Shown: positions 3,492 through 58,500 of the stretch, in pieces | Position numbering within the stretch: position 1 is the stretch's first letter | Layout of the letters: every line of letters starts with the position of its first letter | Assembly: GCF_003018255.1 (NCBI RefSeq) | Contig: NZ_CP027440.1 | Direction: 5' to 3' (one strand) | DNA: 64,000 bases | From: Escherichia coli | GTDB taxonomy: Bacteria > Pseudomonadota > Gammaproteobacteria > Enterobacterales > Enterobacteriaceae | Program-made: the position numbers and the translations under genes | The notes under the pieces: generated by a model | What the model was told of the DNA's origin: nothing | The model's input: only the letters and a program-made list of their open reading frames with translations | The model's database searches: none

Positions 3492-4748
3492 ATGACCCTT
3501 TTAGCACTCGGTATCAACCATAAAACGGCACCTGTATCGCTGCGAGAACGTGTATCGTTTTCGCCGGATAAGCTCGATCAGGCGCTTGACAGCCTGCTTG
3601 CGCAGCCGATGGTGCAGGGCGGCGTGGTGCTGTCGACGTGCAATCGCACGGAACTTTATCTTAGCGTTGAAGAGCAGGATAACCTGCAAGAGGCGTTAAT
3701 CCGCTGGCTTTGCGATTATCACAATCTTAATGAAGAAGACCTGCGTAAAAGCCTCTACTGGCATCAGGATAACGACGCGGTTAGCCATTTAATGCGTGTT
3801 GCCAGCGGCCTGGATTCACTGGTTTTGGGGGAGCCGCAGATCCTCGGTCAGGTTAAAAAAGCGTTTGCCGATTCGCAAAAAGGCCATATGAAGGCCAGCG
3901 AACTGGAACGCATGTTTCAGAAATCTTTCTCTGTAGCGAAACGTGTTCGCACTGAAACAGATATCGGTGCCAGCGCTGTTTCTGTCGCTTTTGCGGCTTG
4001 TACGCTGGCGCGGCAGATCTTTGAATCGCTCTCTACGGTGACGGTACTGCTGGTGGGTGCGGGCGAAACCATCGAGCTGGTGGCGCGTCATCTGCGCGAA
4101 CACAAAGTACAGAAGATGATTATCGCCAACCGCACTCGCGAACGTGCCCAAATTCTGGCAGATGAAGTCGGCGCGGAAGTTATTGCCCTGAGTGATATCG
4201 ACGAACGTCTGCGCGAAGCCGATATCATCATCAGTTCCACCGCCAGCCCGTTACCGATTATCGGGAAAGGCATGGTGGAGCGCGCATTAAAAAGCCGTCG
4301 CAACCAACCAATGCTGTTGGTGGATATTGCCGTTCCGCGCGATGTTGAGCCGGAAGTTGGCAAACTGGCGAATGCTTATCTTTATAGCGTGGACGATCTG
4401 CAAAGCATCATTTCGCACAACCTGGCGCAGCGTAAAGCCGCAGCGGTTGAGGCGGAAACTATTGTCGCTCAGGAAACCAGCGAATTTATGGCGTGGCTGC
4501 GTGCACAAAGCGCCAGCGAAACCATTCGCGAGTATCGCAGCCAGGCAGAGCACGTTCGCGATGAGTTAACTGCCAAAGCGTTAGCGGCCCTTGAGCAGGG
4601 CGGTGACGCTCAAGCCATTATGCAGGATCTGGCATGGAAACTGACTAACCGCCTGATCCATGCGCCAACGAAATCACTTCAACAGGCCGCCCGTGACGGG
4701 GATAACGAACGCCTGAATATTCTGCGCGACGGCCTCGGGCTGGAGTAG
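3492..4748 (+). CDS. hemA: Glutamyl-tRNA reductase
   Basis: ORF track 3294..4748; start moved to ATG 3492 ([15 protein letters not shown]..., 418 aa). Confidence 0.93.
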
Positions 4749-5872: not shown

Positions 5873-6705
5873 TGGAATATCAACACTGGTTACGTGAAGC
5901 AATAAGCCAACTTCAGGCGAGCGAAAGCCCGCGGCGTGATGCTGAAATCCTGCTGGAGCATGTTACCGGCAGAGGGCGTACTTTTATTCTCGCCTTTGGT
6001 GAAACGCAGCTGACTGACGAACAATGTCAGCAACTTGATGCGCTACTGACGCGTCGTCGCGATGGTGAACCCATTGCTCATTTAACCGGGGTGCGAGAAT
6101 TCTGGTCGTTGCCGTTATTTGTTTCGCCAGCGACCTTAATTCCGCGCCCGGATACGGAGTGTCTGGTGGAGCAGGCACTGGCGCGGTTGCCTGAACAACC
6201 TTGCCGTATTCTCGATCTCGGGACGGGTACCGGGGCGATTGCGCTGGCGCTGGCCAGCGAGCGTCCGGACTGCGAAATTACCGCTGTAGATCGTATGCCA
6301 GATGCTGTCGCCCTGGCGCAACGTAATGCCCAGAATCTGGCGATCAAAAACATCCATATTCTGCAAAGCGACTGGTTTAGCGCGCTAGCCGGGCAGCAGT
6401 TTGCGATGATTGTCAGTAATCCGCCGTATATTGACGAGCAGGACCCACATCTTCAACAAGGCGATGTCCGCTTTGAGCCGCTCACTGCGCTGGTTGCGGC
6501 AGACAGTGGAATGGCAGACATCGTGCATATCATCGAACAGTCGCGTAACGCGCTGGTATCCGGCGGCTTTCTGCTTCTGGAACATGGTTGGCAGCAGGGC
6601 GAAGCGGTGCGACAGGCATTTATCCACGCGGGATATCATGACGTCGAAACCTGTCGGGACTATGGTGATAACGAGCGCGTAACGCTCGGCCGCTATTATC
6701 AATGA
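5872..6705 (+). CDS. prmC: Release factor glutamine N5-methyltransferase (HemK)
   Basis: ORF track 277 aa; NPPY motif (IVSNPPYI) and SAM-binding LDLGTGTG visible; start overlaps prfA stop. Confidence 0.93.
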   Translation: MEYQHWLREAISQLQASESPRRDAEILLEHVTGRGRTFILAFGETQLTDEQCQQLDALLTRRRDGEPIAHLTGVREFWSLPLFVSPATLIPRPDTECLVEQALARLPEQPCRILDLGTGTGAIALALASERPDCEITAVDRMPDAVALAQRNAQNLAIKNIHILQSDWFSALAGQQFAMIVSNPPYIDEQDPHLQQGDVRFEPLTALVAADSGMADIVHIIEQSRNALVSGGFLLLEHGWQQGEAVRQAFIHAGYHDVETCRDYGDNERVTLGRYYQ

Positions 6706-7094
6706 CAAGTTTTTCTACACTGCTTAGTGTTCATCTTATTAGTATCGCGCTTTCAGTTGGGCTATTAACCTTACGTTTCTGGCTACGTTATCAGAAGCAT
6801 CCACAGGCATTTGCGCGCTGGACGCGCATTGTGCCGCCGGTTGTCGATACGCTGTTATTGTTAAGCGGCATTGCGTTGATGGCTAAAGCGCACATCCTGC
6901 CATTTTCCGGGCAGGCACAGTGGCTGACTGAAAAGCTGTTTGGAGTTATCATTTATATCGTTTTGGGTTTTATTGCACTCGATTATCGTCGTATGCACAG
7001 TCAGCAGGCGCGCATTATTGCCTTCCCGCTGGCGTTGGTGGTGCTGTACATCATCATTAAACTCGCCACCACAAAAGTACCGTTACTGGGGTAA
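6702..7094 (+). CDS. ychQ: Small inner-membrane protein SirB2/YchQ
   Basis: ORF track 130 aa, hydrophobic; ATGA overlap with prmC stop; K-12 synteny. Confidence 0.85.
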   Translation: MTSFSTLLSVHLISIALSVGLLTLRFWLRYQKHPQAFARWTRIVPPVVDTLLLLSGIALMAKAHILPFSGQAQWLTEKLFGVIIYIVLGFIALDYRRMHSQQARIIAFPLALVVLYIIIKLATTKVPLLG

Positions 7095-7097
7095 GTC

Positions 7098-7907
7098 ATG
7101 AGATCGTTAGCTGATTTCGAATTTAATAAAGCGCCATTGTGCGAAGGCATGATCCTGGCTTGCGAAGCAATCCGCCGCGATTTTCCCTCGCAAGATGTTT
7201 ACGACGAACTGGAGCGTCTCGTTAGTCTGGCGAAGGAAGAAATCAGCCAGCTTCTGCCTTTAGAAGAGCAGCTGGAAAAACTGATCGCGCTGTTTTACGG
7301 CGACTGGGGATTTAAAGCCTCACGCGGCGTTTATCGTCTTTCCGATGCATTATGGCTGGACCAGGTGTTAAAGAATCGACAGGGCAGTGCGGTATCATTA
7401 GGTGCCGTTTTATTATGGGTCGCGAATCGTCTTGATTTGCCGCTGCTGCCGGTGATTTTCCCTACGCAGCTGATATTGCGCATTGAATGTCCGGATGGCG
7501 AAATTTGGCTGATTAATCCTTTTAACGGTGAATCGTTAAGCGAACATATGCTGGACGTATGGTTAAAGGGAAATATCAGCCCGTCGGCGGAACTGTTTTA
7601 TGAAGACCTTGATGAAGCTGATAACATTGAGGTAATCCGCAAATTGCTGGATACACTCAAAGCTTCGTTGATGGAAGAGAATCAGATGGAGCTGGCGTTA
7701 CGCACCAGCGAAGCTTTATTACAATTCAACCCGGAAGATCCCTATGAAATTCGCGATCGCGGGTTGATTTATGCGCAACTGGATTGCGAACACGTTGCGT
7801 TGAACGATTTAAGTTATTTCGTTGAACAGTGTCCGGAAGACCCGATCAGCGAAATGATCCGTGCGCAAATAAATAACATCGCGCATAAACATATTGTGCT
7901 GCATTAA
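7098..7907 (+). CDS. ychA: SirB1/YchA (transglutaminase-like/TPR protein)
   Basis: ORF track 269 aa; K-12 synteny between ychQ and kdsA. Confidence 0.85.
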   Translation: MRSLADFEFNKAPLCEGMILACEAIRRDFPSQDVYDELERLVSLAKEEISQLLPLEEQLEKLIALFYGDWGFKASRGVYRLSDALWLDQVLKNRQGSAVSLGAVLLWVANRLDLPLLPVIFPTQLILRIECPDGEIWLINPFNGESLSEHMLDVWLKGNISPSAELFYEDLDEADNIEVIRKLLDTLKASLMEENQMELALRTSEALLQFNPEDPYEIRDRGLIYAQLDCEHVALNDLSYFVEQCPEDPISEMIRAQINNIAHKHIVLH

Positions 7908-7933
7908 TTAATCGACATTTTACTCAAGATTAA

Positions 7934-8797
<864 letters not shown>

Positions 8798-8818
8798 TCT
8801 TTTTTGCCTGAAAACTAA

Positions 8819-8849
8819 AGCCTTAGCGTTCTGCGTTAAGGCTTTTTTC
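8819..8849 (+). terminator. Rho-independent terminator downstream of kdsA
   Basis: Hairpin aagccttagcg/cgttaaggctt (one G-U pair) followed by TTTTTT, 20 nt after the kdsA stop. Confidence 0.6.
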
Positions 8850-8864
8850 ATGGGGGCCGGATAC

Positions 8865-8896
8865 AAAAAGGGCCGCAGGCTGTTACCCCTGCGGCC
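8865..8896 (-). terminator. Rho-independent terminator downstream of ldr (minus strand)
   Basis: 8-bp stem ggccgcag/ctgcggcc with 10-nt loop; on the minus strand followed by CTTTTTG. Confidence 0.5.
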
Positions 8897-8945
8897 GGTT
8901 TCGGGCGCATATTGCCATCACGGCAGCCTGACGCCCGTTTTCGCC

Positions 8946-9053
8946 TTACTTCCGGTTACGCCACCAGCCGACAATCGCTGCGGTAATAATTCCCGCCAGG
9001 ATCGGTGCTGCCAGGTCGTGCCAGAAAATCACGGTAAACTGCGCGAGCGTCAT
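8946..9053 (-). CDS. ldr: Ldr-family type I toxin (35 aa)
   Basis: Minus-strand ORF not in the ORF track (<60 aa): MTLAQFTVIFWHDLAAPILAGIITAAIVGWWRNRK, near-identical to recalled K-12 LdrA/B/C. ORF-track + ORF 8850..9071 is its antisense. Confidence 0.85.
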   Translation of the reverse strand: MTLAQFTVIFWHDLAAPILAGIITAAIVGWWRNRK

Positions 9054-9099
9054 ATAGCCGCCTTGTTGTAATGACAACATTTTGCGGCTATTCTTGAAT

Positions 9100-9168
9100 T
9101 GTTCTGGTTCAAGATTAGCCCCCGTTCTGTTGTCAGGTTATACCTCTCAACGTGCGGGGGTTTTCTCT
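9100..9168 (+). ncRNA. rdl: Rdl antisense RNA (antitoxin of Ldr), approximate ends
   Basis: Segment caagattagcccccgttctgttgtcaggtt...cgtgcgggggttttctc matches my memory of RdlA and ends in a GC stem plus U-run; lies antisense to the ldr 5' leader. Boundaries not determined. Confidence 0.5.
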
Positions 9169-9420
9169 TTCCAGCAACCAATGCCACCAGGGATAAAGCC
9201 CCCGCAACATTGCGCCTCACCGGATAACGCCGGCTTGGTGTGGATACTACGACTCAATTCATCTTCACTTCATCCCTGAAATGTTTGCAATGAAGAGTGC
9301 ATTCCGGTTTTTCAACAGCTGTTACAGTCGTTTCGTGCAGGTTGTGGTTCAGGCTCGCAATTCTGATTAACAACCTGTCCAGGTAGTATGAAGAAATACA
9401 ATAAGCAGGAATTTATATTA

Positions 9421-9452
9421 TCTCCCCCGATTTCCGTCATCGGAGGAGATAT
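9421..9452 (-). terminator. Putative terminator downstream of chaA (minus strand)
   Basis: About 10-bp imperfect stem (tctcccccga/tcggaggaga) followed on the minus strand by an A/T-rich run, just after the chaA stop at 9458. Confidence 0.4.
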
Positions 9453-9457
9453 AACTG

Positions 9458-10558
9458 TCAGGCAAATATCGTCATCAAATAGGCGGCAAACAGTGCCAGA
9501 TGCGCTGCGCCATTGAGCACGTTAGTACGTCCGGTGGAGAAGGAGATATGACACAGCACTAAAGAGGCCACCATCACCACCATTTCTGGCGCACCAAGTG
9601 CAAACTGCAATTCGTTACCCGTCATAAAGGCAATTAGCGTGACGACAGGTACGGTAAGCGAAATGGTTGCTAACACTGAACCAAAGAACAGATTCATCGC
9701 GCGCTGGACCTGGTTGTTCAACACTGCTTTTAACGCACCTAAACCTTCCGGCGACAGAATCAACAGAGCCACCAGGAAGCCAGTAAAGGCGACAGGGGCA
9801 TTCATGCTGTCGAGCAATGTCTCCAGCGGGCTGGCGTTCATTTTGGTCACCGCAATAACGGCAATCAGATGGACAATCAACCAGATAGCATGCCACAGGC
9901 TGCTATGGGCAGACGGTTTACCGTGATGCGGGTCGTCGTCATCACTGTCATCTTCGTGCTCGTAGACAAACAAACTTTGATGCGTTTTGGTCTGGATCAG
10001 CAAAAATACGCCATACATTGCCGCAGAAATTAATGCTACCAGTAACGCCTGACCGGTTGAAAAATTCGCCGCAGGCAGAGCCATTGGAAATACCAGTACG
10101 ATTATCGCCAGGGGGAACAGCGCAATTAAATACTGCTTGATACCAAACAGATTCATATATTGGGTGGCAAACTTGCGTCCGCCCAACAATAATGAAAAGC
10201 CAACCAGCCCACCGGTAACAATCATAATGATTGAATAGAGCGTATCACGCATTAGCGTTGGCGCGGCGTCGCCGGTTGCCATTAAAGCTGAAATCAAACT
10301 GACTTCAAGAATAACCACTGAAAGGCTAAGAATAAGCGAACCGTAAGGCTCTCCCAGGCGATGGGCTAATACGTCCGCATGACGGACAACACTAAAGGCG
10401 CTACTTAAAATACCAATAAGAGCAAGAAGATTGATGGCAATGACCACTGGTAGTGTCTGGCTGCTTCCCCACAGGAACAGCACTACCAGCGCCAGAACCG
10501 GGAAAATAAGCGAAGTCTCCTTGTGGCGGGTTTTTACCGCCTCTTGAGCATTTGACAT
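9458..10558 (-). CDS. chaA: Na+/Ca2+/K+:H+ antiporter ChaA
   Basis: ORF track 9458..10645; start moved to ATG (plus 10556-10558, MSNAQEAVKTRHK..., 366 aa). Confidence 0.92.
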   Translation of the reverse strand: MSNAQEAVKTRHKETSLIFPVLALVVLFLWGSSQTLPVVIAINLLALIGILSSAFSVVRHADVLAHRLGEPYGSLILSLSVVILEVSLISALMATGDAAPTLMRDTLYSIIMIVTGGLVGFSLLLGGRKFATQYMNLFGIKQYLIALFPLAIIVLVFPMALPAANFSTGQALLVALISAAMYGVFLLIQTKTHQSLFVYEHEDDSDDDDPHHGKPSAHSSLWHAIWLIVHLIAVIAVTKMNASPLETLLDSMNAPVAFTGFLVALLILSPEGLGALKAVLNNQVQRAMNLFFGSVLATISLTVPVVTLIAFMTGNELQFALGAPEMVVMVASLVLCHISFSTGRTNVLNGAAHLALFAAYLMTIFA

Positions 10559-51430: not shown

Positions 51431-52069
51431 ATGAAAAAGTTAACAGTGGCGGCTTTGGCAGTAACAACTCTTCTCTCTGGCAGTGCCTTTGCGCATGAAG
51501 CAGGCGAATTTTTTATGCGTGCAGGTTCTGCAACCGTACGTCCAACAGAAGGTGCTGGTGGTACGTTAGGAAGTCTGGGTGGATTCAGCGTGACCAATAA
51601 TACGCAACTGGGCCTGACGTTTACTTATATGGCGACCGATAACATTGGTGTGGAATTGCTGGCAGCGACGCCGTTCCGCCATAAAATCGGCACCCGGGCG
51701 ACCGGCGATATTGCAACCGTTCATCATCTGCCGCCAACACTGATGGCGCAGTGGTATTTTGGTGATGCCAGCAGCAAATTCCGTCCTTACGTTGGGGCAG
51801 GTATTAACTACACCACCTTCTTTGATAATGGATTTAACGATCATGGCAAAGAGGCGGGGCTTTCCGATCTCAGTCTGAAAGATTCCTGGGGAGCTGCCGG
51901 GCAGGTGGGGGTTGATTATCTGATTAACCGTGACTGGTTGGTTAACATGTCAGTCTGGTACATGGATATCGATACAACGGCTAAGTATAAATCTGGTGTT
52001 ACTACCGTGAAAGACTCGGTACGACTGGATCCGTGGGTGTTTATGTTCTCTGCCGGATATCGCTTTTAA
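51431..52069 (+). CDS. ompW: Outer-membrane protein OmpW
   Basis: ORF track 212 aa with signal peptide (MKKLTVAALAVTTLLSGSAFA) and C-terminal aromatic residue. Confidence 0.95.
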   Translation: MKKLTVAALAVTTLLSGSAFAHEAGEFFMRAGSATVRPTEGAGGTLGSLGGFSVTNNTQLGLTFTYMATDNIGVELLAATPFRHKIGTRATGDIATVHHLPPTLMAQWYFGDASSKFRPYVGAGINYTTFFDNGFNDHGKEAGLSDLSLKDSWGAAGQVGVDYLINRDWLVNMSVWYMDIDTTAKYKSGVTTVKDSVRLDPWVFMFSAGYRF

Positions 52070-52107: not shown

Positions 52108-52132
52108 CTGGTCATCAAATGACCAGTTTTTT
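52104..52132. terminator. Palindromic bidirectional terminator overlapping the integrase stop codon
   Basis: aaaa-ctggtcat-caa-atgaccag-tttttt; perfect 8-bp inverted repeat flanked by A-run and T-run. Confidence 0.65.
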
Positions 52133-53245
52133 CCACTCTTTACCGCGTACATCGTTGTAAATATCGGTCATTTTTTGATTCGAATGACCCAGCAAAATTT
52201 GGGTATCAATTCCCTGCTCCCTGAACAATCGCTCTGATAAAGATCTCTGCTCATGGAAAGAGGGTGGAGTGCCATTAGCGCGCCAGTTGTAATCCACAGA
52301 ATCCCGGGCTTTTTTAAATGCAACTGTCAACGTTGCTGGCTTAACCATCCCGCCGCGCTTAGCTGTCCCTTTAGCATGATGGTGGTGCAATAACCACGGA
52401 CTAAGAACGCAATCGCGACAGGATGACACTACATCATCCAGGGTGAGATTTAATTTATCGCAACGCAGAGCCAGAGGGATGGCAATCCGGGTTCCTGTTT
52501 TTTGCTGTTCGACATGAAGATAACCATCCCTGATATCCGAAAATTTCATTTTGCAAATATCTGAAAGGCGCTGGCCTGTCATCAGCGCCAGCAGCATACC
52601 ACGTTGTAAAAAGTAACCATCCTTTTCCGCTGCATTATAAATCATCATCCACTCATCAAAGGTCAGTCGTTGCCGTGATATCCGTACCTGTGGTTTTTTT
52701 GCCGATTCTGCAGGGTTAAAGCCTGGCGAGACATCGCCCGTTTGCTGGGCCTCCCGGAAAACATCAATCAGTACTTTCCTGAAAATTTGTCCCATTCTGT
52801 TATGTCCTTTTGCCTTGTAATCTTCCAGCACCGATACCACATCTTTTACGGTTATGGCATCTAATGGTCTGGTACCAAAACGTTCATCAAATACCCTGAG
52901 AGGGGATGCTTTCTGTTTCAGTGTGTTGAGTTTGATCTCTCCGTTTTCATATCTTTCCTGTTGAATTTTTCGGTAACTATTCAGAAAAACAGAAACGGTT
53001 GATGAACCACCGGTATCACGAATAATTTTCTCCTGCAGAGTGAGCATTTGTTCCATTTGTTGCCTGGCAAGACGGCTGTTCGCTTCTGCTGCAATAGCTT
53101 CTGCCTGTTTCTGGTCAATACTGCCGAGCCCGTGATTTTTTCCTGTTATGGGATGCCTGTAACGCCAGTAAACTTTGTTATTTCTTTTGTCAAAATACGG
53201 AGATAATCCCGGAACTTCAGTTTTATATTTTCGTGGGCGCGCCAT
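52115..53245 (-). CDS. int: Phage integrase (tyrosine recombinase, lambda Int family)
   Basis: ORF track 376 aa; C-terminal LLGHSNQKMTDIYNDVRGKEW resembles the lambda Int active-site region (H, R, catalytic Y). Confidence 0.9.
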   Translation of the reverse strand: MARPRKYKTEVPGLSPYFDKRNNKVYWRYRHPITGKNHGLGSIDQKQAEAIAAEANSRLARQQMEQMLTLQEKIIRDTGGSSTVSVFLNSYRKIQQERYENGEIKLNTLKQKASPLRVFDERFGTRPLDAITVKDVVSVLEDYKAKGHNRMGQIFRKVLIDVFREAQQTGDVSPGFNPAESAKKPQVRISRQRLTFDEWMMIYNAAEKDGYFLQRGMLLALMTGQRLSDICKMKFSDIRDGYLHVEQQKTGTRIAIPLALRCDKLNLTLDDVVSSCRDCVLSPWLLHHHHAKGTAKRGGMVKPATLTVAFKKARDSVDYNWRANGTPPSFHEQRSLSERLFREQGIDTQILLGHSNQKMTDIYNDVRGKEWKKLVI

Positions 53246-53471
53246 CTTCCAGTATCCTCTTCAAAGCAGGGTGATCTGTGGCGATCACTTCCGGCTTGTT
53301 TACCATTCCGACAAAGCGAGCTCGAGGATCCACTCGCCAGTGTCTTCCAACTTTTTTGGGGAGAGGAAATATCATTCCGGCTTTAGCGTATTTACTTAAC
53401 GTGCCCGGAGTAGGGACCGGTTCACTGAATTCCTCTTTTGCCCACTCAGTGAGCAGAATAAGTCTTGCCAT
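53223..53471 (-). CDS. xis: Excisionase (lambda Xis-like)
   Basis: ORF track 82 aa; LILLTEW...GMIFPLPKKVGRHWRV resembles lambda Xis; overlaps int start by 23 nt. Confidence 0.7.
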   Translation of the reverse strand: MARLILLTEWAKEEFSEPVPTPGTLSKYAKAGMIFPLPKKVGRHWRVDPRARFVGMVNKPEVIATDHPALKRILEDGAPTKI

Positions 53472-53535: not shown

Positions 53536-56007
53536 TTAAAAATCAGCCTGACTCGGGATCAGTTTTTGCCAGATGGCTGAAACGTATTTTGCCTGGTAAC
53601 GCGCATCGTGCAGCGCGTTATGGCGTTCACCTTCGAATGGAATAGTCGTTCTTGCGTCGAAATCCATCACCAGTCCCAGAGCAACCATCGTTCTTACATC
53701 GCGATCATTGGTGTAACGCCACGGGCAGGGGATCCCCTGCCGTTCATATGAACGGCGTAAAATCACGTTGTCGAAAGTTGCACCGTTACCCCAGACCTGA
53801 ACAAAAAATTCACCGGAGTTTTCGTCGATAAATTCCCGGAATTGCAGCAGTGCATCATCCAACGGGATTTCATCGGTCAGAATGGCGGATTGTGCTTCGC
53901 GTGACTGTTTCAGCCACCACTTAATGGTGCCCCGATCGATGACCCCGCCTGCGGTTTCCAGATCGATAGTTTTGCTGAATTCTGGCCCCATCTCTCCGGT
54001 TGCCGGATCAAAAAACTTACCGGCTATAGAGTTTATTGGCGCATCAGGATTTTTTCCCATTGTTTCAAGGTCAATCATCAGATGGTGCCACAACCTGCTG
54101 GTGGATGTGATTTCATGATGACCGTTCACTTTAATTAAGGGATTTGCTGTCTCGCCAGTTTTATTATCGCTGGCGTGATACTGATCGCTGACAGTGTTCT
54201 CCTTGTGCAGATGTTCAGTGCCTTCCATTTCCTCCGGATCATTTTCCTGAGCTTCAGCCTGATTCTCTTCATCGAATGTTTCCTGGTTGGTTGCGTTCCC
54301 CATCACCGCACCACAGTCAGGACAGTTGCCGCCACCGGTCTGACCGCATGCGGTGCAAACTTTTTCCGGTTCTTGTTGCACTTCTGGTTCAGGCAGTTTC
54401 GTTTCTGGCTCGTTTTGTAACGCATTTGGACTGTTTTGTTCCGCTTTCTGGTCGTTTTGTTCCGATTCGGGCTGGTTCTGGTTCACAGAATCGCGGGTTT
54501 CAATCCCCTTAACCCATTTCGGATCATTCGGGTCGCTAATCCCTTCAACAAATTCACCACGTGATGCAGCAAGCAATTTATCGGTGTCAGGCTGGCTGAT
54601 ATTGGCTGCCTGCATAATTTTGTTTACTTCGTCAGCGGTAACTTTTACCGGCTCTGGTTGTTCTGAATCTTCTGCGGTATCTGTATTTTGCTGTAAGCCC
54701 GTATATGTGCCATTTTTTCGGGCAAAATATTCTTCTTTTGAGATTTCGGTACCACCGGCAGCCAGCGCCTTGTCCAGGCCAGAAAGTTTGTTTGCCCTGC
54801 CGTATTTTTCCCCGTCCTTATCGGTAAAGACGAAATAAAACGGTCCTTCACGCTCTACAGATGGTTCAGCTTCCACCAGGATTTCATTTTTTTGAGAATT
54901 GGATTCCGCCGTCTCCACTGGATCAGTTTGTGCTGCTGACGACAGGATAGCATCAGCAGAGCTCTGGTCTGTTTCTTCATGTTCAAACACGCCCTTTGTC
55001 GTCAGGTATTCGCTGATGTATTTGTTCAGTGCAACGGGATCTTTGTGAATGTCGATCGGGCGCTCACGAACAAGGCCAAAAATAGTCTGACGGTCATAGC
55101 GAAGCGCATCAGGCTGTTTGCGCATTGATGCAGAGATACGCTTCCAGTCTTCGCGATCCTTGTCGATAACCTCATTTTTAGCCCAGCGATGGATGGTACC
55201 GTCAATGTTTCCGGCATCAATATCACCAGGCCAGAGAGCGTAAGCCAGCTCTTCATCCAGGGTTTTCCATGTCTGCTTGTATTCGCGACGAATGGCAGTA
55301 GTGACAGGGTTGATTTTTGCTGCTGAGTTTTCAGTGTGCTGTTGGTTGACTCTGGCGCGGGCCAGCTCAACAACAGAAGTATGTTTCCCGGTTTCTTTTC
55401 GTTCTGCTTCGCGACGTTTTTTCCAGGTGCGCATCTCTGCCTGAATTTCTGGCCATTTGGCACCAGGCTTACATTTATGCTTAACCCACCCGATGGCATG
55501 CAGTTTAATCTCCGGATACATGGCGTTAACTTCTGGCATTTTCATCAACGCTTCAACGATATGTCCGTCGAAGGTTGCCATGTCTTCCTGCAACAATTCC
55601 TGTGCGCTAATCACCATATCAACGGTGATGTTTTCACATGTGTCGAACTTAACCATGACAGCGTTCTGTACTTCAGGGGACAGCTTGTCAAAAGTGACGT
55701 TCATCGGATCTGATTCAGTCTCAACCGGGACAAAGGAAGCAGACGCCTCATCCCAGCGGTTTTCCAGCATATATTCAGCATCCCAGGAGTCGAGGGCTGG
55801 GCGGGGTGTACCGGGTTTATCCTCACAGACAAGAAATTTATAAGCGCAGTCCTGAGCAGCCGGATAATGTTCAAGGAATTGCCAGTGAAATTTTGCGCGG
55901 GCGCGACGTTCATCACCGGCTTCAATGGCTGTGGCCACAGCAACAGCGCCCTCGTTTTTTATTGCCTGTTCGTCAGGAATGGCGGCGCAAATAAATATTT
56001 TACTCAT
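53536..56007 (-). CDS. Large prophage exonuclease-like protein with C-terminal DnaQ-like (DEDDh) 3'-5' exonuclease domain
   Basis: ORF track 823 aa; C-terminus has motifs in order DLETMG, FDNVIL, HNALHDARY; CxxC...CxxC (CTACGQTGGGNCPDCG) mid-protein; acidic Q/E/N/P-rich linker. Sits in the exo/recE position after xis. Confidence 0.75.
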   Translation of the reverse strand: MSKIFICAAIPDEQAIKNEGAVAVATAIEAGDERRARAKFHWQFLEHYPAAQDCAYKFLVCEDKPGTPRPALDSWDAEYMLENRWDEASASFVPVETESDPMNVTFDKLSPEVQNAVMVKFDTCENITVDMVISAQELLQEDMATFDGHIVEALMKMPEVNAMYPEIKLHAIGWVKHKCKPGAKWPEIQAEMRTWKKRREAERKETGKHTSVVELARARVNQQHTENSAAKINPVTTAIRREYKQTWKTLDEELAYALWPGDIDAGNIDGTIHRWAKNEVIDKDREDWKRISASMRKQPDALRYDRQTIFGLVRERPIDIHKDPVALNKYISEYLTTKGVFEHEETDQSSADAILSSAAQTDPVETAESNSQKNEILVEAEPSVEREGPFYFVFTDKDGEKYGRANKLSGLDKALAAGGTEISKEEYFARKNGTYTGLQQNTDTAEDSEQPEPVKVTADEVNKIMQAANISQPDTDKLLAASRGEFVEGISDPNDPKWVKGIETRDSVNQNQPESEQNDQKAEQNSPNALQNEPETKLPEPEVQQEPEKVCTACGQTGGGNCPDCGAVMGNATNQETFDEENQAEAQENDPEEMEGTEHLHKENTVSDQYHASDNKTGETANPLIKVNGHHEITSTSRLWHHLMIDLETMGKNPDAPINSIAGKFFDPATGEMGPEFSKTIDLETAGGVIDRGTIKWWLKQSREAQSAILTDEIPLDDALLQFREFIDENSGEFFVQVWGNGATFDNVILRRSYERQGIPCPWRYTNDRDVRTMVALGLVMDFDARTTIPFEGERHNALHDARYQAKYVSAIWQKLIPSQADF

Positions 56008-56102: not shown

Positions 56103-56291
56103 TTATCCAGCCGGTGTTTCGTTATTCAGGTACAGCGATACTTTGTTTAACGGGAGACATTCACCGGAAATTTTTTGCTCGTCTCTTGCCTGATGGCAGG
56201 ATTCTTTACTGGCATAAATTCCGGTAATCACATTCTGTGGCTCACCCGTTATAAGAAAAACCGTCATTACCAGTGCAAATGCAGAAGTCAC
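56103..56291 (-). CDS. Small prophage early protein with N-terminal hydrophobic segment (62 aa), function unknown
   Basis: ORF track; GTG start preceded by SD ggaggg; start overlaps the upstream gene stop as GTGA; N-terminus MTSAFALVMTVFLITG. Confidence 0.55.
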   Translation of the reverse strand: MTSAFALVMTVFLITGEPQNVITGIYASKESCHQARDEQKISGECLPLNKVSLYLNNETPAG

Positions 56292-56476
56292 TGCTGCCCT
56301 CCGAAAATGCCAAGTTTAAGAAGGGCAATTCTGGAGAGTATGGAATTATCATTGAGAAGATAAGGCTCATATTTTCTCATCCTGATGGCGTCCTCAGTAA
56401 ACTCCCGGTTACTGAGCAGAATACCAATATTAAAACACCCTTCAGACGTATTAACGTTTGGTAGTGACGTTTCCAT
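56288..56476 (-). CDS. Small prophage early protein (62 aa), function unknown
   Basis: ORF track; ATG preceded by SD gagga at 7-nt spacing; coupled to the downstream gene. Confidence 0.55.
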   Translation of the reverse strand: METSLPNVNTSEGCFNIGILLSNREFTEDAIRMRKYEPYLLNDNSILSRIALLKLGIFGGQQ

Positions 56477-56650
56477 TATCGCGTCCTCAACAATGAATTT
56501 TGTGATGTGGTGCCTGGTGCCTCCAGGTGACGTTAACCAGTTAACAATTAACGCCGGATTGTTAGTTGATGTCTGTTACGCCAGTAAAAGACCGCTTGTT
56601 TTAACTGTTCCGCGTGCGCTTAGCCGCATTCACCGCATCACAAAATACAC

Positions 56651-56680
56651 TTTAAAAATGGCGGATATCCATTTCCGCCG
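56651..56680 (-). terminator. Putative rho-independent terminator (minus strand)
   Basis: Stem ggcgga/tccgcc with 8-nt loop, followed on the minus strand by ATTTTTAAA. Confidence 0.45.
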
Positions 56681-57004
56681 AATCACCAGAAAAGTGATAA
56701 CAGAGGTTGTTGTGGCGGTGTTGTCACTCAGGCGTATGGTCAACCTGACAACCCGGTGCATTTTCTGGAGCAATGGAGGAAGCCCCAGCCATACTTACCG
56801 CCGCGCCATTTCGCGGATTGCCACAACCGGAAGCGCACGATCGAATTACATTTAACGACGACATATACAGAGAGACTAACTTCGCCGAGCGCTTTCGTGT
56901 TGTGTGCCTGCTTTTAACCACGTCAGGCGAGGTGGACCTGTTATTCCCCAACAACAAGGAGCTTGTTAATCTGGATATCCCCAACAACAATAAGAGTATT
57001 GAAT

Positions 57005-57448
57005 GTGATCGCTGAATTAACGGCAGCAATGACGGCTATTCGTGAAACCGCTCAGATTACAAAACTAATGAACGAGGCAAAAACTCAAGCTGAAGTAAAT
57101 GCGGCTATTGGTGAACTGAACTCAAAGCTTGCATCTATTCAGCACGAATGCGTGTCTCTCGTTGAGCTGGTGAGCACTTATCAAGAAATAAATGCTTCTC
57201 TCAAAGCTAAAATTGCAGAATTTGAAAACTTTGAGGCTCAGACGGAAGGTTATATCCTTAACCAACTTGAGTCGGGAACTTTTGTGTACTCGAAGGAGGT
57301 AACCGTGAACGGCGGCAGCATAATCATGCATCTTTGTCCAAAATGTTTTGGACAAAAGATAGTATCGATACTTCAACCATTCCCGGTTAGAGAACATGAG
57401 TTTTTCATAAAAGCAGGTGCCTCTACTGTGAAAATCAGTTTCTTATGA
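57005..57448 (+). CDS. Hypothetical prophage protein on the opposite strand to flanking early genes; predicted coiled-coil N-terminal half, Cys-containing C-terminal region
   Basis: ORF track 56963..57448; protein-like composition while overlapping minus ORFs look antisense-like (L/S/R/F-rich). Start uncertain (GTG 57005 with weak SD aagag; alternatives TTG 56963, ATG 57029). Confidence 0.5.
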   Translation: MIAELTAAMTAIRETAQITKLMNEAKTQAEVNAAIGELNSKLASIQHECVSLVELVSTYQEINASLKAKIAEFENFEAQTEGYILNQLESGTFVYSKEVTVNGGSIIMHLCPKCFGQKIVSILQPFPVREHEFFIKAGASTVKISFL

Positions 57449-57632
57449 ATAAAAATCCGGATTATGTATCGCCTCCATCTATTGAGGAGTTGGCCAGAAA
57501 ACTGAACGGCAATCTGTAGATTGTTACTGTTATGGATATCCAGATTGTTAAAGAGCATGCCGGATGCTTGCTTGTGTCCGGCGCGTGTGCACCAGTTCTC
57601 CCCGTGGAGGATTCCTTAACTACCAGACTTCA

Positions 57633-57785
57633 TTAGTCAGAGTTTCTTGCTAACCAGCGACGCGCGCCAGCTTCAGTTTTAAACGTTTTGCTTCTGGTAT
57701 ACGTCATCGCGGTAAACGTGCCGTCCTGGTTGGGGAATACTCCGCATACCAGAGATTCGTTGTTGCCAAGATTGAGCGTATCCAT
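57633..57785 (-). CDS. Small prophage protein (50 aa), function unknown
   Basis: Not in ORF track (<60 aa). Minus ORF MDTLNLGNNESLVCGVFPNQDGTFTAMTYTRSKTFKTEAGARRWLARNSD with SD tgaggt 4 nt upstream of ATG. Confidence 0.5.
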   Translation of the reverse strand: MDTLNLGNNESLVCGVFPNQDGTFTAMTYTRSKTFKTEAGARRWLARNSD

Positions 57786-58080: not shown

Positions 58081-58500
58081 TCAGGAGGCTTTTTGTTTTT
58101 TCTTTCGCGCTAATTCTTCATAAATTGCGTTGTACTTCTGTTTTTTCTCCTCAAGAGTTTTTAAAAGTTCATCAGTTTCACTGTCAGGGAGTTCATCAAG
58201 AAGTTCAATGATGATTTTTTGCTTCGGACTTAACTCCTGATAGAAACGCAGGCTTCCGCTTTCTTCAGTGTCCTCCCCCAGAAGGTAAGTTGGTGTTGTT
58301 CCGATAAGTGCTGCCAATTCTTTCAGTTTCTCTCGACGGGGAATTGCCTCTCCATTAAACCATTTACTAACCGCTTTGGGTGTTAGCTTCATTCGACGGG
58401 CAATTTCTGCCTGCCTTCCGTGTTGTTCAAAGCCAGCATTTTCACAGGCTAGCGCAAGCCTGCTGGCGAACTCTTTACGCGCTTCATCTTCATGAACCAT
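58081..58500 (-). CDS. Prophage repressor (CI functional analogue, XRE-type HTH, no S24 peptidase domain)
   Basis: ORF track 139 aa; HTH region RRMKLTPKAVSKWFNGEAIPRREKLKELAALIG; divergent from a cro-like gene; acidic C-terminal half. Confidence 0.75.
   Translation of the reverse strand: MVHEDEARKEFASRLALACENAGFEQHGRQAEIARRMKLTPKAVSKWFNGEAIPRREKLKELAALIGTTPTYLLGEDTEESGSLRFYQELSPKQKIIIELLDELPDSETDELLKTLEEKKQKYNAIYEELARKKKQKAS

What the first reader, a model, noticed from the sequence alone, without database searches (positions are those of the whole stretch)
56650..57640. Opposite-strand insert between the early-left genes and the repressor
All flanking early genes (int, xis, exonuclease, two small genes, 50-aa gene, repressor) are on the minus strand, but 57005-57448 carries a + strand ORF with protein-like composition (heptad-like N-terminal half, then HLCPKCF). 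The overlapping minus ORFs (56724-57029, 57122-57397) are L/S/R/F-rich as expected for antisense of real coding sequence. Its stop overlaps the ATG of a further + frame (57445-57636) that contains one in-frame TAG at 57517-57519 (MNKNPDYVSPPSIEELARKLNGNL*IVTVMDIQIVKEHAGCLLVSGACAPVLPVEDSLTTRLH). A minus-strand hairpin plus U-tract at 56651-56680 would stop leftward transcription just past the insert. This is the position where lambdoid phages carry exclusion genes such as rexAB or sieB, so a moron with defence or superinfection-exclusion function is plausible.
Basis: partly seen in the sequence, partly recalled or inferred. Interest (0 to 1): 0.55.

Follow-up and report, generated by a model that had tools for sequence, protein, structure and literature searches.

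The report
Frameshifted Rip1-type anti-phage gene cassette
The opposite-strand insert is a portable prophage gene cassette encoding a relative of Rip1, a recently described protein that detects an invading phage's small-terminase ring, but this copy is broken by a one-base deletion.

Summary
The window is an E. coli lambdoid prophage at ompW. Its early-left arm is a dicB/DicF-type operon on the minus strand.

A 659-bp cassette (56898-57556, + strand) sits in the slot where the Rac prophage carries sieB. All 42 complete E. coli genomes carrying this allele have a T6 run and an intact 171-aa protein. The window has T5 at 57401-57405, a frameshift that removes two of four invariant cysteines. The same truncated product occurs in several independent public assemblies, so it is probably a real allele.

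The intact protein has a coiled coil plus a CxxC…CxxC zinc ribbon. It is a distant but clear homologue of Rip1 ("ring interacting pore 1") of phage HK446:
- family profile against PDB 9oox: E 2.6e-23;
- Foldseek: E 6e-7;
- same PHROG family (phrog_1244);
- same antisense position.

The minus-strand hairpin with a U-tract is the terminator of a shortened DicF-like sRNA. It belongs to the backbone, not the insert.

Verdict: a new, inactivated member of a known defence family. The more unusual material is the cassette's conserved leader and its flanking inverted repeat.

The parts
56898..57556 (+). Mobile cassette (leader + rip1-like ORF + short conserved 3' element). It is inserted antisense into the dicBF-type early-left operon.
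   Evidence: The same block, with the same ends, occurs in E. coli phage PhiR49_1, Salmonella L004, Citrobacter L008 and Klebsiella L015. Phage Tritos has about 30 bp where the window has 56916-57557.
57005..57519 (+). rip1-like gene, disrupted. The intact allele encodes 171 aa (GTG start, TAG stop) with a coiled coil and a C4 zinc ribbon.
   Evidence: Intact in STEC435 (WP_033885209.1). phrog_1244, E 1.9e-57. Profile against PDB 9oox Rip1, E 2.6e-23. Foldseek 9oox_M, E 6.3e-7, TM 0.72. AF2 model pLDDT 91.
57401..57405 (+). Frameshift site: a T5 run where every intact allele has T6.
   Evidence: Alignment A1. All 42 complete E. coli genomes matching 57365-57435 differ by this one gap. The exact 147-aa truncated product is on record from an NCBI 4.9-Mb contig and from several independent SRA assemblies.
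57005..57448 (+). Truncated reading frame actually open in the window: 132 native residues, then 15 out-of-frame residues (IKAGASTVKISFL... tail).
   Evidence: It lacks C139 and C142, which are invariant in 47 family members.
57406..57519 (+). Displaced C-terminal coding remnant (HKSRCLYCENQFLMNKNPDYVSPPSIEELARKLNGNL*).
   Evidence: Read from the sequence and compared with the intact translation.
56906..56935 (+). Conserved leader element GCCTG-CTTTTAA-CCAC-GT-CAGGC-GAG-GTGG, with two interleaved stems: S1 56906-10/56924-28 and S2 56918-21/56932-35.
   Evidence: One copy in the window and none in shuffles. It lies upstream of HK446 rip1, HK620 hkaP and Rac sieB. It heads at least 25 unrelated cargo families. 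Both stems show compensatory variants.
56946..56990 (+). Two direct copies of CCCCAACAACAA (56946-56957 and 56979-56990). The second lies just before the Shine-Dalgarno-like AAGAG (56992-56996).
   Evidence: The class C leaders of HK446, HK620 and sieB have the analogous ACCCCTACAG pair.
56968..56993 (+). Left arm of the inverted repeat that brackets the ORF.
   Evidence: Pairs with 57521-57546 (26 nt, 81% complementary). The same repeat occurs in the Salmonella and Citrobacter cassettes.
57521..57546 (+). Right arm of the inverted repeat, starting 2 nt after the stop codon.
56654..56692 (-). Shortened DicF-like sRNA with its terminator hairpin (stem 56679-56660, U-run 56658-56654). It belongs to the backbone, not the insert.
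   Evidence: Aligned with the annotated DicF of phage Tritos, it keeps the TTTCTGGTGA 5' end and the GGCGG/CCGCC stem but lacks 19 internal nt. No Rfam DicF hit. Terminator scan and fold.

Best explanation
The insert is a self-contained moron cassette carrying a member of the Rip1 family, placed antisense in the early-left (dicB/DicF-type) operon of an ompW-integrated lambdoid prophage. It occupies the slot that holds sieB in Rac and rip1 in HK446.

How the intact form most likely works (inferred from the family):
1. The 171-aa protein is made in the lysogen, independently of the lytic operon.
2. Its long N-terminal helices and C-terminal four-cysteine zinc-ribbon domain recognise the oligomeric ring of small terminase made late by an infecting phage.
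3. The ring templates assembly of about 12 protomers into a pore-like cap.
4. That cap kills or disables the cell before progeny are released (abortive infection).

In this window a 1-nt deletion in a T-run shifts the frame after residue 132. This removes the second CxxC pair and the C-terminal tail, so this copy is most probably an inactive pseudogene fixed in one E. coli lineage.

Shown here: homology, fold, conserved cysteines, the frameshift, the cassette boundaries and the antisense context.

Inferred: expression in the lysogen, terminase sensing, pore formation, and loss of function.
For: - Gene identity: the intact allele sits at the same place in 70 E. coli genomes at 99% or higher identity. 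The alignment shows a single T missing in the window, and the translations join the two ORFs into one 171-aa protein.
- Family: 118 full-length homologues, all in Enterobacterales. C111, C114, C139 and C142 are invariant. There are 3212 cluster representatives in the wider superfamily.
- Link to Rip1: the family profile hits PDB 9oox 'ring interacting pore 1 (Rip1)' at E 2.6e-23 over residues 6-156. BLASTP gives 27% identity, E 2e-12. The AF2 model (pLDDT 91) has 9oox as its only significant PDB fold match (E 6.3e-7, probability 1.0, TM 0.72 on the target). Rip1, HK620 HkaP and this protein all score E < 1e-50 on phrog_1244.
- What Rip1 does: the PDB title is 'HK446 Rip1 in complex with T6 small terminase'. 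PMC12908700 describes a prophage protein that blocks incoming phage, with an 11-mer terminase capped by 12 Rip1 monomers and a proposed pore-based mechanism. bioRxiv 10.64898/2026.04.30.721860 lists Rip1 among sensors of the small terminase.
- Context: the gene is antisense to its neighbours in every background examined, namely the window, PhiR49_1, Salmonella, a second E. coli allele, Citrobacter, Edwardsiella, Arsenophonus, Klebsiella, HK446 and HK620.
- Frameshift is real: 0 of 42 complete genomes carry it. The exact truncated protein is nevertheless found in an NCBI chromosome-size contig and in assemblies of SRR7947255, SRR30416638 and SRR13088289, the last contig seen in 6 samples. A one-residue variant carries the same frameshift.
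- Selection elsewhere: 83 of 86 other copies are intact.
Against: - Identity to the characterised Rip1 is only 27%. The trigger (which terminase, or even whether it is a terminase) and the effector step are extrapolated.
- The primary Rip1 paper was not in the searchable library. The mechanism rests on a PDB title, a molecule name, a meeting report and one sentence in a preprint.
- PADLOC-DB 2.0 and Pfam give no hit. This is expected for a family described after 2023, but it adds no support.
- No consensus sigma-70 promoter was found upstream. No expression data were available.
- The frameshift lies in a homopolymer, a classic site for sequencing error. A low level of -1 ribosomal slippage on U UUU UC could in principle restore the native frame.
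Confidence: 0.72

Rival explanations
1. The gene is intact and functional in the source strain, and the missing T is a homopolymer assembly error.
For: The lesion is a single base in a T5/T6 run. None of the 42 complete genomes with this allele has it. 83 of 86 other copies are intact.
Against: The identical 147-aa product was called in several unrelated sequencing runs and in a chromosome-scale NCBI contig. A variant with one extra substitution carries the same frameshift. That pattern indicates an inherited allele.
Confidence: 0.1
2. The protein shares ancestry and fold with Rip1 but does something else. It might sense a different ring-shaped phage protein (portal, for example), or act as a coiled-coil plus zinc-ribbon regulator of the resident prophage.
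For: Only 27% identity to Rip1. The C-terminal tail and N-terminal extension vary between subfamilies. The superfamily is very large and diverse. One member sits between the lysis and terminase genes rather than near immunity.
Against: Full-length colinear homology, the same PHROG, the same length and the same four cysteines. The same slot, orientation and leader as rip1 itself. No match to DksA/TraR or any regulatory Pfam family.
Confidence: 0.13
3. The truncated 147-aa product keeps a function, for example as a coiled-coil-only inhibitor of related Rip1 proteins encoded by other prophages. P22 Esc, which antagonises SieB, would be the analogy.
For: The frameshift allele persists in a lineage and has picked up a further substitution. 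The whole helical N-terminal half and the first CxxC are retained.
Against: Both lost cysteines are invariant in the family, so the zinc-ribbon domain cannot fold. Nothing indicates selection on the truncated form. The 15 out-of-frame residues are arbitrary.
Confidence: 0.04
4. It is a SieB-type or Rex-type superinfection-exclusion membrane protein, as its position suggests.
For: It occupies the same slot and has the same upstream leader element as Rac, P22 and lambda-type sieB.
Against: SieB proteins form a separate, unrelated cargo cluster with hydrophobic segments. This protein is a soluble-looking helical plus beta zinc-ribbon fold and matches Rip1.
Confidence: 0.01

Closest known systems
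Rip1 (ring interacting pore 1), gene HK446_037 of Escherichia phage HK446; PDB 9oox
   Same: Same PHROG (phrog_1244). Colinear over about 150 residues. Long helical N-terminal half followed by a beta-rich domain with CxxC…CxxC. Size 164 against 171 aa. Encoded on the strand opposite to the early-left operon. The same upstream leader element (GCCTG…CAGGC…GGTGG plus two CCCC-ACA repeats).
   Different: Only 27% identity. It lacks Rip1's roughly 14-residue N-terminal extension and has a different, longer C-terminal tail. It sits in a dicB/DicF-type operon between the sRNA and ydfA rather than between N and cIII. The window copy is frameshifted. Target specificity is unknown.
HkaP of phage HK620 (annotated 'putative superinfection exclusion protein'), with homologues in HK629/HK630 and in Pseudomonas Mu-like phages (DMS3, JBD30, D3112 orf25)
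   Same: Same PHROG and the same architecture, about 30% identity. Same antisense placement.
   Different: A different subfamily. None has been characterised experimentally as far as these records show.
SieB of Rac, lambda and P22
   Same: Same genomic slot, same antisense orientation and the same portable leader element. The Rac layout kilR - KilS sRNA - sieB(+) - ydaF(DUF1391) - repressor mirrors the window's dicB - DicF-like sRNA - rip1-like(+) - ydfA(DUF1391) - repressor.
   Different: The proteins are unrelated. SieB is a membrane protein, and its exclusion mechanism and the Esc/sas self-immunity are specific to sieB.
Other prophage defences that act on packaging or assembly proteins (TerI, Tab; Avs1-3 for the large terminase)
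   Same: Defence triggered by, or aimed at, conserved late phage proteins (titles).
   Different: No sequence or fold relationship. Avs proteins are large STAND NTPases, whereas this is a 171-aa single-domain-pair protein.
dicBF operon of the Qin prophage (ydfABC-dicF-dicB-ydfD)
   Same: The backbone around the insert is this operon: ydfA-like, a DicF-position sRNA, the dicB leader (STnc100 match), dicB and ydfD-like.
   Different: ydfB and ydfC are absent. The DicF copy is shortened by 19 nt and no longer matches the Rfam model. A foreign antisense cassette is inserted.

Membership tests
Rip1 family (phrog_1244) | Significant full-length sequence similarity to HK446 Rip1 | tested here: met
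   Family profile against 9oox_L: E 2.6e-23, residues 6-156 against 16-160. BLASTP: 27% identity, E 2e-12. All three proteins hit phrog_1244 at E < 1e-50. This was tested on the intact allele.
Rip1 family (phrog_1244) | Same fold as the solved Rip1 chain | tested here: met
   The AF2 model (pLDDT 91.2) against PDB: 9oox_M E 6.3e-7, probability 1.00, TM 0.72 (target-normalised), 120 columns. The next hit has E 0.13.
Rip1 family (phrog_1244) | Four-cysteine zinc ribbon (CxxC…CxxC) present in this copy | tested here: not met
   The cysteines are invariant in the family and present in Rip1 and HkaP. The window's frameshift at 57401-57405 removes C139 and C142. The locus is therefore a disrupted member, not a functional one.
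Rip1 family (phrog_1244) | Encoded antisense to the surrounding phage operon, near the immunity region | tested here: met
   One exception in location, though not in orientation: Arsenophonus, between the lysis and terminase genes.
Rip1 family (phrog_1244) | Binds the small-terminase ring of an invading phage and assembles on it (12 Rip1 on an 11-mer) | not testable with these tools
   Known only for HK446 Rip1 with T6 TerS (PDB 9oox title; PMC12908700).
Rip1 family (phrog_1244) | Protects the lysogen against superinfecting phage | not testable with these tools
   This needs plaque assays. No data are available for this subfamily.
Moron (Juhala et al. 2000 sense: an independently transcribed insert with its own promoter and terminator) | Discrete insert, absent from otherwise homologous phages | tested here: met
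   Tritos lacks 56916-57557. The boundaries are identical in four other backgrounds.
Moron (Juhala et al. 2000 sense: an independently transcribed insert with its own promoter and terminator) | Own promoter | tested here: inconclusive
   The consensus scan finds no + strand promoter. The cassette does carry a conserved leader about 100 nt long. In 67 of 121 other cassettes that leader reads as TTnACC-16-TGgTATnCT, but the window's version does not.
Moron (Juhala et al. 2000 sense: an independently transcribed insert with its own promoter and terminator) | Own terminator | tested here: not met
   Other cassettes end with AAGCGTCC…GGGCGCTTTTTT. In the window, backbone sequence follows directly at 57557, and no + strand terminator is found.
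SieB | Homology to SieB, or a membrane-protein character | tested here: not met
   SieB forms a separate cargo cluster behind the same leader. There is no similarity, and the fold is different.
DicF sRNA (Rfam RF00039), for the hairpin at 56651-56680 | Match to the DicF covariance model | tested here: not met
   No hit at E <= 1 in 3.5 kb, nor at E <= 10 in 161 nt. The equivalent Rac locus scores E 3e-7.
DicF sRNA (Rfam RF00039), for the hairpin at 56651-56680 | Positional and sequence homology to an annotated DicF gene | tested here: met
   It aligns with Tritos DicF. The 5' TTTCTGGTGA, the GGCGG/CCGCC stem and the T-run are kept, but 2 + 17 nt are deleted. It is a truncated derivative.

The most novel reading that the evidence does not exclude
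The rip1-like gene is only one cargo of a standardised, exchangeable 'antisense moron' platform in lambdoid prophages.

The platform has two parts:
- A leader element of about 30 nt with two interleaved, covarying stems. It heads at least 25 unrelated cargo families, including sieB and rip1.
- An inverted repeat that brackets the ORF.

The non-Watson-Crick positions are mostly A·C on the cargo strand, which is G·U on the opposite strand. That pattern suggests these structures act in the read-through transcript of the surrounding early operon. They could be a processing signal, or an antisense signal that silences the defence gene during the resident phage's own lytic growth. That would be a built-in self-immunity device comparable to P22 sas/sieB.
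Probability: 0.25. Interest if true: 0.65.

Novelty: new member of a known kind. Interest (0 to 1): 0.36.

Why it matters
For the finding itself the value is in annotation. A protein labelled 'hypothetical' in hundreds of E. coli, Salmonella, Citrobacter, Klebsiella and other genomes has no Pfam, NCBIfam or PADLOC model. It can now be assigned to the Rip1 small-terminase-sensing defence family. The family is large, with more than 3000 clusters at 50% identity.

The frameshifted allele is a natural loss-of-function control. It sits next to near-identical intact alleles in STEC strains.

The broader point is that the slot and its conserved leader mark a hotspot where lambdoid prophages swap small lysogeny-expressed genes. 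Most of the 25 or more cargo families found behind the same leader are uncharacterised, and they are candidate defence or exclusion genes.

Tried and rejected
- Pfam, NCBIfam and PADLOC gave only sub-threshold coiled-coil noise or nothing.
- A DksA/TraR-like reading (coiled coil plus C4 zinc finger at similar positions) was considered. It was dropped because there was no Pfam match and the fold search pointed only to Rip1.
- Recoding at the TAG (a programmed frameshift or stop read-through making a longer product) was rejected. Intact alleles end at that TAG, and the sequence beyond it is unconserved.
- The minus-strand ORFs 56724-57029 and 57122-57397 and the + ORF 56773-57015 were treated as mechanical. 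They are not annotated in RefSeq, and the first lies in the conserved non-coding stretch upstream of DicF.
- The primary Rip1 paper could not be found in the library. Searches on the sieB promoter and on KilS were uninformative.
- RNAalifold on the leader gave only a weak consensus hairpin.
- MAFFT split stem S1, so the count of structure pairs could not be applied. Stem statistics were computed with a script instead.
- Rfam has no family for the leader.
- No intrinsic terminator for the + strand was found downstream of the gene.
- Several weak sigma-70 candidates in the leader were inspected by eye. None was convincing.
Full report
**Setting.** The window carries ompW (51431-52069, +) followed by a lambdoid prophage. 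Its left arm lies entirely on the minus strand:
- integrase 52115-53245;
- excisionase 53223-53471;
- an 823-aa exonuclease 53536-56007;
- a DUF1482/ydfD-like gene 56103-56291;
- dicB 56288-56476;
- a DUF1391/ydfA-like gene 57633-57785;
- a DicA-like HTH repressor 58081-58500.

These come and from the RefSeq annotation of a 99.9% identical locus in strain STEC435. The backbone is therefore a Qin-type dicBF operon. Rfam places the dicB leader (STnc100, E 1e-4, below the gathering score) at 56444-56661 on the minus strand.

**Checking the observation.** The key correction comes from comparison with relatives.
- 70 complete E. coli genomes carry the same 1.3 kb at 99% identity or higher. They annotate one + strand CDS of 171 codons there.
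- The alignment shows that the window lacks a single T in a T-run: T5 at 57401-57405 against T6.
It ends at the TAG at 57517-57519.
- Beyond that TAG, similarity to other phages ends within about 40 nt, so the rest of the 'further frame' is not coding.
- None of the 42 complete genomes matching a 71-nt probe across the site has T5.
- The exact 147-aa truncated product is nevertheless on record from a 4.9-Mb NCBI contig and from assemblies of at least three unrelated sequencing runs. A variant with one extra substitution shares the frameshift.

I conclude that the frameshift is an inherited allele in one lineage, not a lone assembly error. Direct re-sequencing would settle it.

**What the gene is.** The intact protein has no Pfam, NCBIfam or PADLOC match. 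It fits phrog_1244 ('unknown function') end to end at E 1.9e-57.
- 118 close homologues, all in Enterobacterales and all labelled 'hypothetical', are 160-175 aa long. They share a strongly conserved helical N-terminal half and four invariant cysteines: C111, C114, C139 and C142.
- An AlphaFold2 model built on this alignment is confident (pLDDT 91). It has two helices (2-24 and 28-79), then a beta-rich zinc-ribbon domain and a short C-terminal helix.
- Its only significant match among solved structures is PDB 9oox, 'Escherichia phage HK446 Rip1 in complex with the Enterobacteria phage T6 small terminase' (E 6.3e-7, probability 1.0, TM 0.72 normalised on the target).
- Sequence alone gives the same answer. 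The family profile hits the 9oox chain named 'ring interacting pore 1 (Rip1)' at E 2.6e-23 over nearly its full length. Pairwise BLASTP gives 27% identity, E 2e-12.
- Rip1 is gene HK446_037. Rip1 and HK620 HkaP fall in the same PHROG.
- The wider superfamily is large: 3212 cluster representatives at E <= 1e-3. It includes homologues in Pseudomonas Mu-like phages.

**What is known about Rip1.** I could not find the primary paper in the library. The accessible sources are these:
- the PDB title and molecule name;
- a preprint that lists Rip1 among systems sensing the small terminase subunit (10.64898/2026.04.30.721860).

The mechanism I assign to the intact allele is therefore an inference by homology at 27% identity. 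The steps are expression in the lysogen, recognition of the invader's small-terminase ring, ring-templated assembly of a pore, and abortive infection.

**Consequence of the frameshift.** The window's product keeps residues 1-132 and then reads 15 unrelated residues. It loses C139 and C142, both invariant, and the whole C-terminal tail. The zinc-ribbon domain cannot form, so this copy is very probably inactive. 83 of 86 other copies examined are intact, so the family as a whole is under selection. A -1 slip of tRNA-Phe from UUC to UUU at the T-run would restore the native frame. I regard this as a minor caveat, not as evidence of programmed recoding.

**The insert as a cassette.** BLAST against loci from other hosts gives the same block with the same ends, window 56898/56899 to 57554-57556. 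It appears in E. coli phage PhiR49_1 (between a yfdP-like gene and cI), a Salmonella prophage (between cro and the replication genes), a Citrobacter prophage (between xis and cI) and a Klebsiella prophage (next to kil). Phage Tritos shares both flanks but has about 30 bp in place of 56916-57557. It has ydfB/ydfC-like genes that the window lacks. In every background the gene is antisense to its neighbours.

E. coli K-12 Rac has the same layout with different cargo: kilR, the KilS sRNA (a DicF-family match, E 3e-7), then sieB on the opposite strand, then ydaF (DUF1391), ydaG and racR.

**The minus-strand hairpin.** The hairpin at 56679-56660 with its U-run aligns with the terminator of the DicF gene annotated in Tritos. 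The window's copy keeps the 5' TTTCTGGTGA and the GGCGG/CCGCC stem but lacks 2 + 17 internal nucleotides. It no longer matches the Rfam DicF model. It belongs to the backbone operon and is present where the insert is absent, so it did not arrive with the insert.

**Expression signals.**
- The consensus scan finds no + strand promoter or terminator near the gene.
- The start is GTG at 57005, as in almost all family members. It is preceded by AAGAG at 56992-56996.
- In most other contexts the cassette ends with a strong intrinsic terminator (AAGCGTCC…GGGCGCTTTTTT). In the window that terminator is missing, and backbone sequence follows at 57557.

**Unexpected features of the cassette (partly followed up).**

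1. *Leader conservation.* The 107 nt upstream of the start are more conserved than the protein. They are nearly identical between cassettes whose proteins share 52-55% identity. The first part, GCCTG(T)CTTTTnACCACnTCAGGC…GGTGG, is also present upstream of HK446 rip1, HK620 hkaP and, with changes, Rac sieB.

2. *Many cargoes.* An exact-pattern scan of viral contigs found at least 121 instances heading at least 25 unrelated cargo families. These include Rip1-type proteins, SieB, many proteins of 50-200 aa and some apparently non-coding cargo. The sequence upstream of the element is variable.

3. *Two interleaved stems.* I collected instances without using the stems, anchoring on downstream words. 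These show two interleaved stems with several fully compensated variants each:
   - S1: GCCTG/CAGGC, GCCCGG/CCGGGC, GCCGGG/CCCGGC, ACCCGG/CCGGGT;
   - S2: ACCAC/GTGGT, CCACC/GGTGG, CTACC/GGTAG, CCACG/CGTGG and others.

   In 78 of 79 distinct cores, 9-10 of 10 positions are Watson-Crick, against a mean of 6.5 in shuffles.

4. *A flanking inverted repeat.* A 26-nt inverted repeat brackets the ORF (56968-56993 and 57521-57546). It recurs in the Salmonella and Citrobacter cassettes.

5. *Strand asymmetry.* Across 149 cassettes, the non-Watson-Crick positions of the repeat's 13-nt core are about 20 A·C against 4 G·T on the cargo strand, after I removed reverse-orientation duplicates by hand. The stems show the same tendency. 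A·C on the cargo strand is G·U on the other strand. This hints that the pairing is kept in the antisense read-through RNA of the surrounding operon. Strand-biased mutation is an alternative explanation.

Rfam has no family for this element. I do not know its function. A promoter-plus-operator, a processing signal and an antisense self-immunity device are all open.

**Comparison with the known, and verdict.** The locus works like Rip1 and is homologous to it. In its intact form it meets every family criterion that can be tested in silico. The window copy fails the zinc-ribbon criterion because of the frameshift. I file it as a disrupted new member of a known and only recently described defence family. 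It is not a new kind of system. For a specialist the gene itself is of modest interest. The conserved leader and flanking repeat shared by many cargoes are the part that may repay further work.

Noticed in passing
window 56654-56692 (-), with upstream sequence to about 56723: The DicF-position sRNA is a shortened variant. It keeps the 5' UUUCUGGUGA and the terminator stem but lacks 19 internal nt of canonical DicF, and it gives no Rfam DicF hit. The stretch just upstream (CAACACCGCCACAACAACC) gives a weak, sub-threshold match to the prophage anti-GcvB sRNA AgvB (15 bits against a gathering score of 56, E 0.99).
   Followed up: partly
window 56906-56935 (+); also L016 3341-3375, L017 2898-2932, L221 about 2065-2105: A leader element of about 30 nt with two interleaved, covarying stems lies at the 5' edge of the cassette. 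In viral contigs it heads at least 25 unrelated cargo families, including sieB and rip1. There is no Rfam family for it. In 67 of 121 instances the sequence after it reads as an extended -10 promoter (TGgTATnCT), but not in the rip1/sieB-type leaders.
   Followed up: partly
window 56968-56993 and 57521-57546: A 26-nt inverted repeat brackets the ORF from just before the Shine-Dalgarno region to 2 nt after the stop. It is conserved in the Salmonella and Citrobacter cassettes. Mismatches are mostly A·C on the cargo strand (about 20 against 4 G·T), as if the pairing were maintained in the antisense transcript.
   Followed up: partly
window 57557 onward; compare L002 about 4165-4195 and L015, L088, L089 just after the gene: In most backgrounds the cassette ends with GTTAAAGAGC plus an intrinsic terminator (AAGCGTCCnnnnGGGCGCTTTTTT). 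In the window, and in the related 65%-identity allele (L007), this terminator is absent and the backbone hairpin GCCGGATG…TGTCCGGC (57559-57581, no T-run) follows.
   Followed up: partly
window 57625-57640 against L003 3045-3421: The window lacks the ydfB- and ydfC-like genes that lie between ydfA and DicF in phage Tritos and in K-12 Qin. The operon here runs repressor - ydfA - [antisense cassette] - DicF-like - dicB - ydfD-like.
   Followed up: partly
window 56601-56638; L002 3438-3465; L015 4842-4879: A 28-38-nt piece of the dicB leader (CGCGTGCGCTTAGCCGCATTCACC) lies immediately upstream of the cassette in PhiR49_1 and in a Klebsiella prophage that have no dicB. This suggests the cassette was picked up from a dicBF-type context, with a deletion in between.
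   Followed up: no
L106, L113, L114, L175, L176, L178, L194, L196 (downstream of the leader element): Several leader instances are followed by a GC-rich, apparently structured sequence (GGTAGGTATCTTCGGGCGGGG…) rather than an obvious ORF. This may be a non-coding RNA cargo.
   Followed up: no
L011/L012 (Edwardsiella prophages), about 5960-9800: The rip1-like gene is followed on the same strand by two unannotated genes (228 and 175 aa). Between N and cI there are alternative inserts, a DnaB-like helicase in one strain and a GmrSD_N protein plus a 208-aa partner in another. This looks like a pair of adjacent defence hotspots.
   Followed up: no
window 57333-57356 (+): A perfect 11-nt palindrome, TTTGTCCAAAA/TTTTGGACAAA, lies inside the ORF at the CPKCFGQK codons. 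It is also present in the 65%-identity allele (L007 5329-5352).
   Followed up: no
L040 and L081 (viral contigs): Two other copies of the gene are independently disrupted: a premature stop at codon 59 and a truncation at codon 146. Occasional loss of this gene is therefore not unique to the window.
   Followed up: no
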